From: Perna viridis
Taxonomy: Eukaryota
Assembly (NCBI GenBank): GCA_037379345.1
Contig: CM074514.1
Location: forward strand, 6,696,001 to 6,760,000
Reading direction: 5' to 3'
Length of the DNA stretch: 64,000 nt
The position numbers are program-made. Below are positions 45,001 to 63,000 of this stretch, piece by piece (the stretch's first letter is position 1; each line of letters begins with the position of its first letter).

Positions 45001-48000
45001 AAAAAGTTATATATTGAAGTTAAAATATTTTTTTCTGTTGTACTACATCAGAATTTACAATAAAGGACTTTTTGTGAAACCTATTTACTTAGGATCATAT
45101 TGAAAATGTGCATTTATTTTATTGTTGATTCTAAAGGAGCAGTGTAAGAATCGAAGGAATATTTTAGTATTATACTCATGAATTTACTAGAAATAACTTA
45201 ATTTGTTGAGGTTTACTCCAATAGTATGACAGTAAGTAAGCTGTGTGGCACACTGGTTGACCATTTCTCATAAAACTGTTTAATATTTGGTATAAAGCTG
45301 CAGATAGACAGTCCTTAAAATTGTTCAATATTTCTGTATACATTTTCTAATCAATAATTTACATAAGCAGGGATTTTTAGGAGTTGTGATGCTATTGAAT
45401 TCAATAATGATTTAAATTTGTGTTGGAAATCTTTGAAAAAGATAGTTTATACCTCATCTGTTGCATTTGTGCTGAAGGTACAAATAGAAGAAATGCACTT
45501 AGTTGAAAGGCAAAAGTTGTGCCCTTGAAAGAAAAAATATACTTTCATAATTGTTCCCACGATGCATTTCTTCATACTGCAGCTACTCTCAAAATGTAAT
45601 CTTTCATTTGTAATATTTGGGTCATGTTTGAGACCACATGTTTACAGCAGCTATCAAAAAGATCTAAATGATTCAACATAATCATATTATAAATTTTAAA
45701 GTAGCAGAGTTCTGATATGCAAAATCAATTTTTAATTTGCTTTTTACAAAAAATAGATGGTTCTCTGTGGTTATAACAGACTAATAGAATAACAAAGGGC
45801 TTAATTGTTTTACTTAATCCCCTGGATACATCAAAGTAACTGGTGTCACAAATAAACTCCAGTAACTTCTAGATAAAGGCAAACAATCAACAGGACAGAC
45901 CATGCCTGTCTGGAATTAACTATAGTAGGTTTAACATATGGGGGGGGGGGGGGGGGCGCTTGGATGACATGATTGATACTAAATGTAAGAGAAAGGTACA
46001 AACTTAATTGGCAGATTTTACATAAATATAATATTTTAACATGGAGAAGCAACACATGACGGCTTTATGTTGGCATTTTGACCTTAGTGACTTAGTACAT
46101 ACATATAGGTACAATATCAATTTATGATTACTGGTACTTATGTTTTGGGTCTATAAAACAAAATAATCCAACTCTATACAACACTAATGGTTGTTCAGCT
46201 ATGTAGAATATTGGCCAGTACATTTTATCTAAGCTGAACCCTAAATCTAGAACAGTTCTGAATCCTAACTCTACACAAACAGATTAACGAACAGAACACA
46301 CATTTCAGTCTGAAATTTAAAGACTAGTTTGGTTGTTATACTATGTAGCCTCTTTTGTTCTATAAATGCTAACATGGTTATTCAAGCCTGATGTTGTATC
46401 ATTACTATAAATCTAGTCACGTGTTATACTCATTTGCACAAATTATCATGATTGTTTATTTCTTTGTAAATATTGTTATAATATGTCAATAAAATATAAC
46501 ATAGACTTCAGTTTGTATGTTTTTGAACAGAAATGAATTATACGCCAAACATAGCAAAAACGTAAATGAATCGAAAGTAGATACTGCAGTACTTACAAAC
46601 TGTATTGGCACATCATATTTATCAACGATACTTACAGATGTTTCATAGTCTTGGGATGGTTTAGTCGTATGGCTAATATCAAGTCTATCTTGGGGTAAAA
46701 TGTTACTGCCAAACACAATTTGTTACATAAAAGAAGCAAAAAGAACTAATTTGACTGAAAGATTGAAGTAATAATTTCAAAACCATACCTAAGTTCCAAA
46801 CATGAAAGTTGGTCGACGAACTTTTTAGCTTATTTTATCATGATATTTGTCGCATATTCAAAGCAAAAAAAAAAATAAACATAAAACTATGATTTCTCTA
46901 AGAAATGTTTTTGTATTTACAATTGTTTTTTACGGACGATTCCGTCAATGTGATATGTAAGAACGAAGTCTTTCGTTGTGAGTTAGAAATGTAAAGTAAA
47001 CAACACTATAGAAGACTGTTATAACAATAGTATCCTTTGACGAAAAAGACAGCAAAATTTCCGAAAACTTGAACTTTTTGTGAAAACTCTTCGTTAGCTT
47101 TGTAAACGCGCACCGGTAGGGTAAGTGTTATCTGCGTTTGGCAAATAAAGCATTTGCAAAGATAGAGAAGTTAAGATTACTATGAAAGCCTTTATTACTT
47201 TTGCAATATCTTGAATATGTGTGAGATATGAAAATTCCACTTTGTAACGAAATGTGGTTGATGAATCATGTCATGTTTTTTGCGTTTTTTTTTCTGCTAT
47301 AAAAGCAGCTTTACATTCGTAAGCGCAGAACAAAATGGGCAATTAGGGTTCAAAGCCTCGAAAAGTGGTGGAAGGAATTTTTATCATTTTCTTACATCTT
47401 GGTGATTTGTGCAACGCTGCTTAATCTCACCAATATGTGTACGTGTTTTCGTTATTGAATTCCGTAATGGTTTTCGAGAACTTTCTAGCGAAAATGTTGA
47501 AAAGTAGGAATTGGCTAACATCAACTTCAGCCTACAGAATCCGAAGCATATTTTCCATATTAGGCACATTTCTATTTTTGTTCATTTTTTTTTCTTAAAG
47601 GGCTGGGCTTACCTTTCTGGGCTGCCGCTTTTCCATTCAAAGTATTATTGCTGTTAGAAAGATTCGTTCGATGACTTCTCACACTTTTCAGTAACTCCAG
47701 TACCCTTGGTTTTTTCGCATTTACGATTTTCAGCACTGCTACTTTTTGTTCCAAAAACTCTATTCTCTCCAACTTCCAGTTGAGGGAGGCACGTGCACTT
47801 TCGTAACTACCATCTGCTTCTAGACACCGTAATGTAAACAATAAAGCAAACATTACATAAAGCATGCTTCTGATTTCACTGATTCATCTATCTTTGATCT
47901 AACATTAACTAAAGTGTTGGGATTTAACATATGGTTATTCATATTCTATCTCGCTGACACTATGAATGTGGTGCATCATATGTACCGAGTTCAGTAAATC

Positions 48001-60000: not shown

Positions 60001-63000
60001 AACGATTGACATTTTAATGCCCTCTATACGTGTTAGACGTCAGCCACAGGCTGTAAGTTTTACAGGAGTCCAATAATTATTCGTACGTGCGTTCTGCAAT
60101 TATCAGTCATCCTTAACTAAAACTACTAATGGAAATAATTTCAGATTTCATGCAGGTTATGTAAAGAACATGATAAGTTGTACCGTGTGTGAGACATTCA
60201 GTTTGGTTGCACATCCACTTGCTTATAATTTTTGTGGGGGACATCTGTGATCTATGGACACTTTAATTTCAAAATTTAGGTCACTACTACACTAATTCGT
60301 TAGAAAAAAATAACTGAAATATTGTTAGATTTTATGTCGGTTGTTTTGTTTTGTTTTTTAAAAAGTCATACATGATATTTTTGTAAAAAAAATCAATACC
60401 GGGGCTTCTCAATATTCGTACTGCTATGATTCGTTATGTCTTTCTGTTCAGATTTCATAACCTCATTCTCATATTTAACAGATGCTACAATTAAGGAGAG
60501 ATACCGAAGACAACTGAGATCGACCAATCCCGCATTTTACGCCTATATGTCTGGTTCCGAGAATAAGCCAGGTCCACACCACACACTAATATTCGATCAC
60601 TTGATCACTAACCTCGGGAATAACTACAATAGATTCACCGGCGTCTTCAGTGCGAACCAAGCTGGATTGTACGTGTTTTCATATACAATTACGCCCGATG
60701 TAGGTGCCATAATGCCGGTTGAAATTGTAAAAAATTCAGACATCGTAGGATCATTGTTTGTACACGCCTACTCATCGTACCAGAGCGCCGCCTCATCAAC
60801 AGTTATTATTCAGATGAATGTTGGAGATGTTTGTTACATTCGAACAAGTACTACTACATCACCAGCAGGAAACGTCTATAGCAGCGATAAATCAAGGACT
60901 TCATTTTCCGGATGGCGTCTGGTATAGTTGAAACGATACAGAATGCTTTGGAAAAAGTTTTCAATCATATTTTTGTTGTTCTTTTGTTATTATCATTTAT
61001 ATTTTAACTAACATTATTGGTTTTTCCGTGTAATGGATAAAAAAACTGAAAAGGTATCCATACAAGCAAAGTTTTGTGCATTATCTCTTTCGTAAACTGG
61101 CAGAAACTTCAATAATTCTTTCTATTGAGATTTTGATTTTACTTTTTGATGCCTTAGAGTTGATAATGACATCTTTGTGTTCCTGATTGTGATCTTTATG
61201 ATTTTCTCTTTGTTTGGCGCTTTGTTTTTCCTGTTTTTTTTTAGATTAGCTTTACTGGCACCATATTTTCAAGTTATTGTAGTCACCTGTCGTTTAAGTT
61301 CCGATAAATATTTTCACACATTATGAGGCAGACAAAATCAGTGTCTACGGGACAAATGACTGTAGTTTTAAAAATGTTTCAAGTAAAAATTTATTTCGTC
61401 AAGAAAACGAAGATTCATTCAATCACTTTTTAAGCTCACCTGGCCATAGGCCATGTGAGCTATTGTCACCACTTGGTGTTCGTTGTCGTCGTCTGTCGTC
61501 GTCGTGGTTAACAATTCTTCACACATCTCCTTTGAAACTACTGAATGGCTTTGAATGAAACTTAATATGATTGTTTCTTAGAGTATCATGCACAAAATGA
61601 CTGTTTGGGTTTTTGATCTGTAAAAAAGACATGACCGCCATTACTAATAATAGAACATAAGGGTCAGACAGCAGTTTTTTGCATATATCTTCAAAACCGT
61701 TAGATTTAACTAAATTCTGACTGGGTATAAGTGTTCACCATGATGAGATCTATCTGTGATGTAATTTTGGTGATCTGTTGAGGTCTTACTAACCACTTCT
61801 AACGTTTCCATTACTTTACATGTTAAAAAAGTAATTTTCAAAGTTTCACTGCGAATTCCCAGGACAAATGACATCTTAAAGTTGCATACCATTGCGAAGC
61901 TTGGAAATTAAGGCTTTCAAAATCATCATGCTAATGGTGCGATGGTGGTCAAAATACATTTTTTTGCAAATAAGTCTTAAACAGTTGAATTTAGCAAAGT
62001 TCTGATGAGAGTTATATTGTTCAACATCAGAAGACCGACCTTTGCCAAAATTTACAAAATTGTTTGTTGTCTGTTTTAGGATTTATTGCACCAGACAGAT
62101 TTTTTGTCGTTTTAATGTGTACAACTCTCTGACACTAATTGCAACAAAATTTAATAAAAATTGGCATATTTTTTAGGGTTTCTTCCACAAACTGATCATT
62201 TAAAATTTTTCATGAGTAAAAAAAATATGGCCGTCGTTACCAAAAATAGAACATGCTTTTTTGCGTTTTTTCCCCTCAACTATAGAAGAATAATGAAAAT
62301 GAAAGCTACCATTAAGATAAACATAATATTCTGAGTTGACGGGAGTATTGAATTTTTTTTTTAGGCGGCCATTTTACGACCATTTTCACCAGTTGCTCCG
62401 ATTCCATATATGGGAAGCTATATAGGTGTTTTAAGTTGAATGGTGATGACGAAAGATTGTTCTGGGTGGCCATTTTCCCGCTAATTTTTATATTTGCCTT
62501 GATTTCAACGATAATTGTTTAATTCTCCTAATATGAATGGTAATGATGAAAATTTTGGATAGCCATGGTTTAACTTCATTTTATGTTCCTTTTCAGCAAA
62601 TCTATACTGGGCTAATGCCCTATCACACCTGGTGGAATAACAGGGCAAAGGGGACCCATGCCAAAATTTTTTCCAGAGGTTCTAAAACACTTTGAAGTCA
62701 TTTCCTACATTTTACAGTGCCTTACGTACTCTTTTTAACTTACAACATTCATCAATATATGCTCTTTTTCAGCAATTTTTTGTCCAACATGGTAACAAAG
62801 CATGGTACCGTTACTTACTTAGTAAATAGGATATGGTTTGTCAGGTGAGCAATTCAGGCTCTTCAAGAGCCTCTTTTTTTCCTTATCTAGCGTTAGCTTC
62901 CCAAGACTATGGCACCATTTCTAATAATCATTGTGTATTTCCAATGCAAGACTGAATAGCGTGAAATGCTTTGTTAATATATTAAGATTGTTTTTGTGCA

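What the first reader, a model, noticed from the sequence alone, without database searches (positions are those of the whole stretch)
47572..60927. Head-to-head pair of furin-site C1q-domain genes, duplicated as a unit: a candidate co-regulated two-subunit secreted system
Seen: genes A (minus) and B (plus) diverge from a ~1.3 kb spacer. Both have a signal peptide and coiled coil in exon 1, one phase-1 intron, then an RxRR site (RLRR, RYRR) just before a gC1q domain sharing PG.HHT.IF.H, although their N-termini are dissimilar. The same divergent A'/B' layout recurs 7-9 kb to the left, so the pair was the duplicated unit. Known: gC1q domains trimerise, can form heterotrimers (C1q A/B/C, cerebellins), and are greatly expanded in bivalves. 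Inference: A and B are co-expressed partners that assemble through the coiled coils and are cleaved to release free globular heads.
Basis: partly seen in the sequence, partly recalled or inferred. Interest (0 to 1): 0.75.

Follow-up and report, generated by a model that had tools for sequence, protein, structure and literature searches.

The report
Divergent pair of bivalve C1q genes
Two intact neighbouring genes for secreted C1q-type immune lectins of a mussel-like bivalve sit back to back beside a decayed copy of the same pair; this is an ordinary product of local gene duplication, with an unproven hint that the two proteins could pair up.

Summary
The anatomy is real. A (minus, 55344-56814) and B (plus, 58128-60927) are two-exon genes with one phase-1 intron each. 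Each encodes a signal-peptide-like N-terminus, a long helical stalk, a basic junction motif (RLRR, RYRR) and a gC1q head (Pfam C1q, E about 2e-20). Their start codons are 1313 nt apart.

This architecture is the commonest known type of bivalve C1q gene (sC1q-like type II), a family that expands by local duplication. The nearest named relatives are all from Mytilus.

The claimed second pair is only a wreck. A' is an orphan first exon with no C1q exon anywhere in 47.6 kb. B' has a stop at codon 2 and a truncated head. Retroelement-derived pieces lie in its spacer and intron.

A strict furin site is rare in relatives (5 of 84). A broader basic plus Leu-Leu junction motif is strongly enriched ([KR]RLL in 22 of 84, about 0.1 expected). 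Processing there is plausible, but the protease is open.

One new point favours partnership. The A and A' stalks are more basic, and the B and B' stalks more acidic, than all 65 relatives compared. A crude heptad test showed no hetero preference. Co-expression, synteny and cleavage could not be tested.

Verdict: new members of a known kind, with modest interest.

The parts
55344..56814 (-). Gene A, intact two-exon sC1q-like type II gene (exon 1 56544-56814, intron 55784-56543, exon 2 55344-55783 including the stop)
   Evidence: ORFs. Splice sites GT 56543-2 and AG 55785-4 read, phase 1. The donor context is kept in A'.
56764..56814 (-). A: signal-peptide-like N-terminus (about 17 codons)
   Evidence: Hydrophobic run followed by a small residue before an acidic stretch, judged by eye. 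No predictor was run.
56545..56763 (-). A: helical stalk, net charge +8 over 65 residues
   Evidence: AF2 helix 2-88, pLDDT 85.9. Heptad a positions are 6 of 7 core hydrophobic. Charge.
55764..55775 (-). A: RLRR junction motif, followed by L-T
   Evidence: Sequence. It aligns with the basic motif of Mytilus relatives.
55350..55736 (-). A: gC1q domain
   Evidence: Pfam PF00386, E 2.2e-20, 73.6 bits, profile positions 2-127 of 127. PDB relatives are C1QL, C1q A/B/C and collagen VIII.
56815..58127 (.). A-B spacer, 1313 nt between the two ATGs
   Evidence: Only 56815-56900 and 58035-58082 are alignable with the A'-B' copy. Only 4 short, weak inverted-repeat pairs, 15-17 nt and 76-87% complementary.
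57550..57793 (.). 36-nt minisatellite (6.8 copies) in the middle of the spacer
   Evidence: TRF, 92% matches, score 362.
58128..60927 (+). Gene B, intact two-exon sC1q-like type II gene (preferred model: exon 1 58128-58428, exon 2 60482-60927 including the stop; alternative donor after 58365 and alternative acceptor giving exon 2 from 60452, all phase 1)
   Evidence: B' keeps an open frame up to the same GTAAGC donor, and DNA similarity to B' starts at 60479.
58179..58427 (+). B: helical stalk plus about 18 disordered residues, net charge -10 over 76 residues
   Evidence: AF2 helix 2-82, then coil; pLDDT 82.3. Charge.
60499..60510 (+). B: RYRR junction motif, followed by Q-L-R
   Evidence: Sequence. 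Aligned column.
60532..60915 (+). B: gC1q domain
   Evidence: Pfam PF00386, E 1.9e-20, 73.8 bits. PDB relatives are Cbln1, adiponectin and C1QL.
47613..47865 (-). A': orphan first exon (84 codons plus 1 nt, open, donor kept); no second exon found
   Evidence: tblastn 59% identity to A exon 1. Sequence. dN/dS 0.38, dS 0.60. No C1q exon in 1-47600. 12-nt gap where A has a TATA-like box.
51312..53140 (+). B': pseudogene copy of B (exon 1 51312-51585, exon 2 from 52790). It has one in-frame stop at codon 2. The head is truncated and one hallmark Gly is replaced.
   Evidence: Pfam C1q 51.8 bits over profile positions 1-107 of 127 only.
48216..49943 (+). Reverse-transcriptase-like remnant in the A'-B' spacer; one broken gene, read in three overlapping ORFs, so at least two frame changes
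   Evidence: ORFs. Pfam RVT_1 E 0.033, below its cut-off. Atlas: 30 of 30 named hits are RVT_1, best 0.92.
52025..52402 (+). Mobile-element-type ORF (HTH_animal-like) inside the B' intron
   Evidence: Atlas feature score 0.98-0.97 to clusters carrying PF26215 in 18-54% of members. No Pfam hit above its cut-off.

Best explanation
This is a small piece of a bivalve (mytilid-like) C1qDC gene cluster.

A and B are two intact, divergently oriented paralogues of the commonest bivalve architecture, sC1q-like type II. Each has:
- a signal peptide;
- an amphipathic helical stalk of about 65-70 residues that brings three chains together;
- a short linker;
- a gC1q jelly-roll head that trimerises and acts as a lectin-like recognition module.

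The head function is inferred from the family.

A block carrying both 5' halves was duplicated long ago (dS about 0.3-0.6). It stayed under some constraint for a time and then decayed. A' lost its head exon. B' gained a stop at codon 2 and lost the end of its head. Retroelement-derived sequence entered the A'-B' spacer and the B' intron.

The head-to-head orientation is most simply a by-product of an inverted local duplication, not a designed two-subunit operon-like unit.

RLRR and RYRR are local versions of a junction motif shared by many relatives: basic residues followed by Leu-Leu, 13-20 residues before the head. I take it as a candidate convertase site that could free the head trimer from the stalk (about 0.4 likely). 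The protease may be of the basic-residue type or the SKI-1/S1P type.

Shown: gene structures, domains, the state of decay and the motif enrichment. Inferred: secretion, trimerisation, lectin role and cleavage.
For: Gene models and domains.

Family membership:
- 2975 relatives at E<=1e-3.
- All named relatives seen are from Mytilus: 5 of the 8 looked up, and 2 of the 3 hits, whose third hit is the window's own ORF.
- A and B share the same nearest clade: P0005 is 56% identical to B and 49% to A, while A and B are 44% identical.

Architecture and mode of expansion are in print. In Crassostrea virginica, type II makes up 262 of 476 genes, 62% of genes are tandem duplicates, and an exon-intron-exon example is given (PMC6835236, section 2 part 1 and passages).

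Stalks: long helices with heptad hydrophobics.

Decay of the left copy.

Age and constraint:
- A/A' exon 1: dN/dS 0.38, dS 0.60.
- B/B' exon 1: dN/dS 0.60, dS 0.45.
- B/B' exon 2: dN/dS 0.32, dS 0.27.

DNA similarity between the two copies is limited to 4 blocks, namely exons plus short upstream stretches.

Motif counts in the 22 residues before the head, in 84 relatives:
- [KR]R: 48 of 84; 14 of 84 in the control window; shuffle mean 18.1.
- RL[LIVM]: 40 of 84; control 3.
- [KR]RLL: 22 of 84; control 0; shuffle mean 0.1, max 2.

Convertase consensus rules come from passages of PMC8310232. A precedent for a furin-released globular C1q head is CTRP12 (abstract of PMC12913486).
Against: - Stalk charge: A +8 and A' +7 against B -10 and B' -10. 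Their charge densities lie outside all 65 relatives compared, which range from -1.19 to +1.00 per 10 residues. This is unusual, is kept in both copies, and is what an acid-base hetero-coiled coil would look like.
- The divergent order is kept in both copies.
- Nothing here measures expression, so co-regulation is not excluded.
- Cleavage is unproven. Strict furin consensus is rare in relatives (5 of 84), the conserved Leu-Leu could be structural, and two close relatives (P0006, P0008) show no basic pair.
- Signal peptides were judged by eye.
- AF2 was run on single chains and single sequences. It shows helices, not coiled coils.
Confidence: 0.68

Rival explanations
1. A and B are obligate partners transcribed from a shared bidirectional promoter. 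The basic A stalk and the acidic B stalk zip into a heterotrimeric coiled coil. A furin-type convertase then cuts at RLRR and RYRR and releases a mixed gC1q head trimer.
For: - Divergent layout with a 1313-nt spacer.
- The same order is kept in the duplicated block.
- Opposite, extreme stalk charges are kept in both copies, outside the range of 65 relatives.
- The helices are of similar length, 2-88 and 2-82.
- The best A-B register gives 4 attractive and 0 repulsive g-e' pairs.
- Heteromeric C1q assemblies exist in vertebrates (passage of PMC6409975).
- Both junctions satisfy R-x-[KR]-R.
Against: - The B-B in-register count scores the same as A-B (net +4), and A-A is 0, so the heptad test shows no hetero preference.
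- The stalks share no detectable similarity.
- The second copy is non-functional on both sides.
- Conserved non-coding DNA hugs each ATG, and the spacer centre is a minisatellite absent from the other copy.
- The closest Mytilus relative of B (P0005) is not among the six most acidic or eight most basic of the 65 stalks listed.
- The charge test was thought of after seeing the sequences.
- By my own reasoning, the high salt of marine haemolymph would weaken charge-driven specificity.
Confidence: 0.15
2. The basic plus Leu-Leu junction motif is not a cleavage site. It is a structural neck or docking element, for example packing under the head trimer or binding an anionic partner. The mature proteins would keep their stalks, as is generally assumed for type II C1qDC proteins.
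For: - The Leu-Leu after the basic residues is as conserved as the basic pair: RL[LIVM] in 40 of 84, [KR]R in 48 of 84.
- Strict furin consensus is found in only 5 of 84.
- The literature read here treats the coiled coil as the oligomerising part of the working protein (PMC6835236 passages).
- No paper in the searchable library links C1qDC proteins of bivalves with furin, or C1q with KRLL or RRLL.
Against: The motif sits in a short linker between a helix and the first strand, where secreted proteins often carry convertase sites. It fits the general basic-convertase rule in 61 of 84 relatives (control 20, shuffle mean 29.8) and the SKI-1/S1P rule in 56 of 84 (control 12, shuffle mean 22.4). A C1q-family precedent for furin release of the head exists (CTRP12).
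Confidence: 0.4
3. The left copy was dead on arrival. A segmental duplication had one end in A's intron and the other inside B's second exon, so A' and B' never worked.
For: Similarity to B stops abruptly at 60832/53140, inside the coding exon, at 88% identity. A' has no head exon within 47.6 kb.
Against: dN/dS is below 1 in all three exon comparisons (0.38, 0.60, 0.32). The introns and the spacer are not alignable although the exons are. This points to a period of constraint or to gene conversion. The codon counts are small (84-116).
Confidence: 0.25

Closest known systems
Bivalve sC1q-like type II C1qDC proteins (classification used in Gerdol et al. 2019, PMC6835236)
   Same: Signal peptide, coiled-coil-type stalk and C-terminal gC1q. 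Two exons with one intron. Found in clusters made by local duplication. The nearest named relatives are Mytilus C1q domain-containing proteins.
   Different: The two neighbours are divergent, whereas the cluster described in that paper is mostly same-strand. The stalk charges are unusually polarised. No function has been measured.
CTRP12/adipolin (vertebrate C1q/TNF-related protein cleaved by furin to a globular isoform; abstract of PMC12913486)
   Same: A secreted gC1q protein with a basic site N-terminal to the head. Cleavage there would give a head-only form.
   Different: No collagen or CTRP-type N-terminus here. Cleavage is not shown here. The family motif is basic plus Leu-Leu rather than a furin consensus. 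It is not a close sequence relative; PDB hits are generic gC1q.
Heteromeric gC1q assemblies: complement C1q A/B/C, cerebellins
   Same: gC1q heads detectable by sequence. The ability to form homo- or heterotrimers is stated for the family (PMC6409975 passage).
   Different: C1q chains pair through collagen stalks and cerebellins through N-terminal cysteines (recalled). A and B have cysteine-free helical stalks. No evidence of co-assembly.
TNF-family ligands shed by furin in the stalk (APRIL, BAFF, EDA; recalled, no call)
   Same: A jelly-roll trimer head preceded by a stalk with a multibasic site. This is a working analogy for head release.
   Different: Those are type II membrane proteins, whereas A and B have cleavable-looking signal peptides. 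No TNF-family hit was returned by any search.
Bidirectional-promoter gene pairs (definition recalled: head-to-head, start sites under about 1 kb apart)
   Same: Head-to-head orientation.
   Different: The ATGs are 1313 nt apart. TATA-like boxes lie near each gene. The centre is a minisatellite. No shared conserved element. Start sites are unknown.

Membership tests
gC1q domain (Pfam PF00386) | Profile match above the curated cut-off over the whole domain | tested here: met
   A 73.6 bits and B 73.8 bits against a cut-off of 23.7, covering profile positions 2-127 and 1-125 of 127. B' scores 51.8 bits but covers only 1-107.
gC1q domain (Pfam PF00386) | Eight residues typically conserved in C1q proteins (F, F, N, F, G, Y, F, G; listed in PMC6409975) | tested here: met
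   By inspection of alignment A3, A and B carry all eight. B' has the Gly before the Tyr replaced and lacks the last F and G. The mapping was by pattern, not by structure.
Bivalve sC1q-like type II | N-terminal signal peptide | tested here: inconclusive
   Hydrophobic N-termini with small residues before the putative cut were seen by eye. No signal-peptide predictor was available.
Bivalve sC1q-like type II | Coiled-coil region between the signal peptide and the head | tested here: inconclusive
   Long single helices. Core hydrophobic residues at a/d positions: A 6 of 7 and 3 of 7; B 5 of 9 and 5 of 8. COILS, which the classification uses, was not run, and no oligomer was modelled.
Bivalve sC1q-like type II | Single C-terminal gC1q domain, no collagen repeat | tested here: met
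   One C1q hit per gene at the C-terminus. No other Pfam family matched above its cut-off in the exon ORFs.
Furin / basic proprotein-convertase substrate | R-x-[KR]-R (furin) or (K/R)-Xn-(K/R) motif (PMC8310232) | tested here: met
   RLRR in A and RYRR in B. Strict motif in 5 of 84 relatives; general basic rule in 61 of 84.
Furin / basic proprotein-convertase substrate | Actual cleavage at the site in the secretory pathway | not testable with these tools
   No proteomic data. Searches for C1qDC with furin returned nothing on bivalve C1qDC cleavage, judged from listings and abstracts.
SKI-1/S1P substrate | R-x-aliphatic-Z, best RRLL (PMC8310232) | tested here: met
   A: R-R-L-T. B: R-Q-L-R. Relatives: general rule in 56 of 84 (control 12, shuffle mean 22.4), [KR]RLL in 22 of 84. 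Only the motif was tested; the rule is loose.
Heteromeric C1q-type complex | Two or more different chains in one trimer, co-expressed | not testable with these tools
   Indirect only: opposite stalk charge against no hetero preference in the g-e' count.
Bidirectional-promoter pair | Divergent start sites within about 1 kb sharing one promoter region (definition recalled) | tested here: inconclusive
   ATG-to-ATG distance is 1313 nt. Start sites are unknown. Conserved upstream blocks are separate and next to each gene.
Conserved syntenic gene pair | The same two gene types adjacent and divergent in related species | not testable with these tools
   No eukaryotic genome context is on hand. Searches with each stalk exon against longer proteins found nothing (115 and 303 candidates, none at E<=0.01).

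The most novel reading that the evidence does not exclude
A and B are an acid-base stalk pair: A +8 and B -10, both beyond the range of 65 relatives, and kept in the old duplicate. The pair would be encoded head to head so that the two chains are made together. They would zip into a defined heterotrimeric lectin. The family-wide basic plus Leu-Leu junction would be a convertase site, which would make type II C1qDC proteins pro-proteins whose stalk is a removable trimerisation aid.
Probability: 0.12. Interest if true: 0.6.

Novelty: new member of a known kind. Interest (0 to 1): 0.3.

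Why it matters
As it stands, this is one more small cluster from a gene family known to run to hundreds of copies in bivalves, so it changes little.

Two by-products may be worth a specialist's look.

First, a short junction motif of basic residues plus Leu-Leu is shared by many stalked bivalve C1q proteins. My searches of the held library found no paper on it. 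If it is a processing site, the mature form and valency of these abundant immune lectins would differ from what is usually assumed.

Second, the two neighbours have oppositely charged stalks. This is a cheap, testable lead to whether bivalves build mixed C1q trimers, which would multiply the recognition repertoire combinatorially.

Tried and rejected
- Search for a head exon for A'. tblastn over the whole window at E<=0.01 found none. Relaxed settings (E<=50, word size 2) over 1-47600 gave only noise, best E 0.61 and 21.2 bits. That output was cut, but the top rows per query were visible.
- Mirrored promoters in the spacer. Only 4 inverted pairs of 15-17 nt at 76-87% complementarity, so rejected.
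- Relatives of the stalk exons. A local phmmer against 154 fetched proteins gave one weak hit for A and A' (P0031, E about 1e-3 to 1e-4) and none for B. Database searches of longer proteins found none. The synteny-by-accession idea therefore failed.
- The first protein search with A's head exon was nearly empty: 3 hits among 6 candidates, a limit of the word index.
- Heptad e/g charge test for hetero-specificity. It was not discriminating: A-A 0, B-B +4, A-B +4. The register for A' was ambiguous.
- Literature. One search was badly designed (18,751 papers, none of the 15 listed holds C1qDC). One search (C1q, bidirectional promoter, head-to-head) gave 2 irrelevant papers. led to a mussel gill 2-DE paper, where one MgC1q spot is listed with two differing mass and pI pairs. 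I could not tell from the passages which pair was measured, so I draw nothing from it.
- Pfam on the retroelement-like ORFs gave only sub-threshold matches. The POTRA_2 and bZIP_1 matches were set aside as sub-threshold, probably chance.
- Not used: genome contigs holds bacteria and archaea only, and the phage, plasmid and E. coli collections are irrelevant to an animal locus.
- The supplement of PMC6835236 (gene list with positions) could show how often neighbouring oyster C1qDC genes are divergent. It could not be opened.

Full report
1. WHAT IS THERE

The window has no N and about 29-37% GC. A tblastn of the six candidate exon ORFs against the whole window at E<=0.01 finds three C1q-head exons (A, B, B') and two pairs of related first exons (A/A', B/B'). 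Nothing else turns up.

Gene A lies on the minus strand:
- ATG at 56814; exon 1 is 56544-56814 (271 nt).
- The donor reads CAGAAAG|GTAAGT and the acceptor TTTTTAG|G.
- Exon 2 is 55344-55783; the intron is 760 nt and phase 1.

Gene B lies on the plus strand, with its ATG at 58128. It has two possible donors (after 58365 or after 58428) and two possible acceptors (exon 2 from 60452 or from 60482). All four combinations are phase 1. I prefer 58428 and 60482 for two reasons. B' keeps an open frame up to the same GTAAGC donor. DNA similarity between B and B' starts at 60479.

The two ATGs are 1313 nt apart. Spliced models were handled exon by exon throughout. The joined proteins were not built, searched or folded.

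2. WHAT THE GENES ENCODE

Both second exons match Pfam C1q: 73.6 and 73.8 bits against a cut-off of 23.7, over nearly the whole profile. By inspection of alignment A3, both carry the eight residues that a paper lists as typical of C1q proteins. The nearest solved structures are generic gC1q heads: C1QL1-3/CRF, cerebellin-1, adiponectin, C1q A/B/C, and collagen VIII and X.

Each first exon begins with a hydrophobic, signal-peptide-like stretch. This was judged by eye; no predictor was run. AlphaFold2, on a single chain without an alignment, predicts the following:
- A exon 1: one long helix, residues 2-88, mean pLDDT 85.9.
- B exon 1: a helix over residues 2-82, mean pLDDT 82.3, followed by about 18 low-confidence residues.

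Heptad a/d positions are enriched in core hydrophobic residues. This supports a stalk helix. It does not show a coiled coil.

The first exons of A and B share no detectable similarity: no BLASTP hit at E<=100. Their heads are 44% identical.

3. THE FAMILY

An exhaustive HMMER search with B's head exon found 2975 relatives at E<=1e-3, 419 at E<=1e-10 and 8 at E<=1e-30. Of the eight best relatives looked up, five carry names and all five are from Mytilus: M. galloprovincialis, M. coruscus (two), M. edulis and M. californianus. The other three are unnamed records. The word-index search with A's head gave two further Mytilus proteins. The best named identity is 56% (B to P0005). A is nearest to the same small clade, at 49-50%. 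The source is therefore probably a mytilid bivalve other than these Mytilus species. This is inference.

The architecture is the one called sC1q-like type II. In Crassostrea virginica it makes up 262 of 476 C1qDC genes. There, 62% of the genes are tandem duplicates, and a set of six paralogues with exon 1, intron and exon 2 is described (PMC6835236; section 2 part 1 and passages read). In mussels, C1qDC genes are among the families enriched in presence-absence variation (PMC7653742, passages).

4. THE 'SECOND PAIR'

Order and orientation recur to the left, with offsets of 8949 nt for A' and 6816 nt for B'. The copy is nevertheless broken on both sides.

A' (47613-47865):
- It is an intact first exon with the same donor context.
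- No head exon exists in 1-47600. A relaxed tblastn gave only noise.
- It has a 12-nt gap where A has a TATA-like box.

B' (51312-53140):
- It has one in-frame stop, at codon 2.
- One hallmark Gly is replaced.
- Its similarity to B ends 93 nt before B's stop, so the last strands of the head are missing. Pfam covers profile positions 1-107 of 127.

The A'-B' spacer is 3.4 kb. It holds a reverse-transcriptase-like remnant (48216-49943) that is read in three overlapping ORFs, so it has at least two frame changes. Pfam RVT_1 scores E 0.033, below its cut-off, and the Atlas returns 30 of 30 named hits as RVT_1. The B' intron holds a mobile-element-type ORF.

DNA similarity between the two copies is confined to four blocks:
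- A exon 1 plus about 85 nt upstream (74.6%);
- 48 nt upstream of B (79.2%);
- B exon 1 (77.8%);
- B exon 2 (88.4%).

Codon comparisons:
- A/A' exon 1: dS 0.60, dN/dS 0.38, 84 codons.
- B/B' exon 1: dS 0.45, dN/dS 0.60, 90 codons.
- B/B' exon 2: dS 0.27, dN/dS 0.32, 116 codons.

The block duplication is therefore old. The copy seems to have been under some constraint, or subject to gene conversion, and then decayed. An unnamed record, P0004, carries a B-type head exon (99% identical) that ends with the B'-type truncated tail. This fits exchange between B and B' in another haplotype, or a third copy.

5. THE BASIC SITE

RLRR and RYRR are real. They lie in the linker, 10 and 9 residues before the first head strand.

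I tested the junction in relatives. Of 151 proteins in hand, 127 had a recognisable first strand. Of those, 84 had at least 45 residues before it. The window's own P0001 and P0004, fragments and stalk-less forms were dropped.

Counts in the 22 residues before the head:

| Motif | Near window | Control window further upstream | Shuffle mean | Shuffle max |
|---|---|---|---|---|
| strict R-x-[KR]-R | 5 of 84 | 0 of 84 | 1.0 | 4 |
| [KR]R | 48 of 84 | 14 of 84 | 18.1 | 32 |
| RL[LIVM] | 40 of 84 | 3 of 84 | 3.5 | 11 |
| [KR]RLL | 22 of 84 | 0 of 84 | 0.1 | 2 |

The Arg of R-L-L lies mostly 13-20 residues before the strand. In alignment A3 the motifs of A, B, B' and six Mytilus proteins fall in one column block.

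By the published rules (PMC8310232, passages), it fits basic-residue convertases in 61 of 84 relatives (control 20). It fits SKI-1/S1P, whose optimum is RRLL, in 56 of 84 (control 12). Both rules are loose.

A furin-released globular C1q head is known for vertebrate CTRP12 (abstract of PMC12913486). I found no paper in the held library on cleavage of bivalve C1qDC proteins or on this motif. This rests on the searches, judged from listings and abstracts.

Cleavage is plausible, at about 0.4, and unproven. The conserved Leu-Leu could equally be structural.

6. PARTNERSHIP

Against, or neutral:
- The family expands by local duplication, and orientation alone says little.
- The duplicated copy is dead.
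- Conserved upstream DNA lies within about 150 nt of each ATG, and the spacer centre is a 36-nt minisatellite (57550-57793) that the other copy lacks.
- No mirrored elements were found.

For: the stalks have opposite and extreme net charge.

| Stalk | Net charge | Residues |
|---|---|---|
| A | +8 | 65 |
| A' | +7 | 59 |
| B | -10 | 76 |
| B' | -10 | 67 |

Among 65 relatives with 70-200 residues before the head, net charge runs from -9 to +11 with a median of 0. Charge density runs from -1.19 to +1.00 per 10 residues. All four stalks lie outside that density range.

This test was thought of after seeing the sequences. A crude count of g-e' pairs gives A-A 0, B-B +4 and A-B +4, so it shows no hetero preference.

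I rate obligate hetero-assembly with shared regulation at about 0.15.

7. VERDICT

These are new members of a known kind, of modest interest.

Left open:
- Expression.
- Transcription start sites.
- Synteny, because no animal genome context is on hand and the two stalk-exon searches found nothing.
- Cleavage.
- Oligomer composition.
- The supplement of PMC6835236, which was closed.

Noticed in passing
P0004 (unnamed record; compare window 60436-60832 and 53130-53193): A 149-aa ORF from another contig is 99% identical to B's head exon, including the intron-end read-through, but ends with the B'-type truncated tail. This mosaic suggests gene conversion or unequal crossing-over between B and B', or a third copy.
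   Followed up: partly
window 48216-49943: A reverse-transcriptase-like remnant in the A'-B' spacer. It is read in three overlapping ORFs, so it has at least two frame changes. The Pfam RVT_1 match is sub-threshold (E 0.033), and 30 of 30 named Atlas hits are RVT_1.
   Followed up: partly
window 52025-52402: An intact 125-aa ORF inside the B' intron. It scores 0.98 in the Atlas to animal 'HTH_animal' (PF26215) hypothetical-protein clusters. It is probably part of a mobile element.
   Followed up: partly
window 53900-54400, 57550-57793, 59675-59869: Three minisatellites: 57 nt x 8.9 copies between B' and A, 36 nt x 6.8 copies in the A-B spacer, and 48 nt x 4.1 copies in B's intron. They create spurious repetitive ORFs (for example 57613-57849 and 53746-54087).
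   Followed up: partly
window 1-35000: A steady positive GC skew and scattered plus-strand ORFs. One of these ORFs (30190-30534) has a sub-threshold RasGEF match (E 0.0016). This is probably a large multi-exon guanine-nucleotide-exchange-factor gene upstream of the C1q cluster.
   Followed up: no
window 5317-5798: Overlapping repetitive ORFs of 133-149 aa on both strands with a repeating peptide pattern. This looks like a tandem repeat, not a gene.
   Followed up: no
window 63234-63620 (minus): A proline-rich 128-aa ORF with no Pfam match. It may be an exon of a neighbouring gene or low-complexity noise.
   Followed up: no
P0010 (Mytilus edulis C1QL, CAG2197104.1): This relative carries a partial head repeat before its full head. 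Each unit opens with basic residues plus Leu-Leu-Leu, as expected if the motif marks the start of the head exon.
   Followed up: no
window 56900-56940 versus 47945-47990 (minus strand): A has a TATATAAA-like box about 115 nt before its ATG. The aligned A' sequence has a 12-nt gap there. A conserved block (ACTGAACT.GGTACATA) lies just upstream in both.
   Followed up: partly
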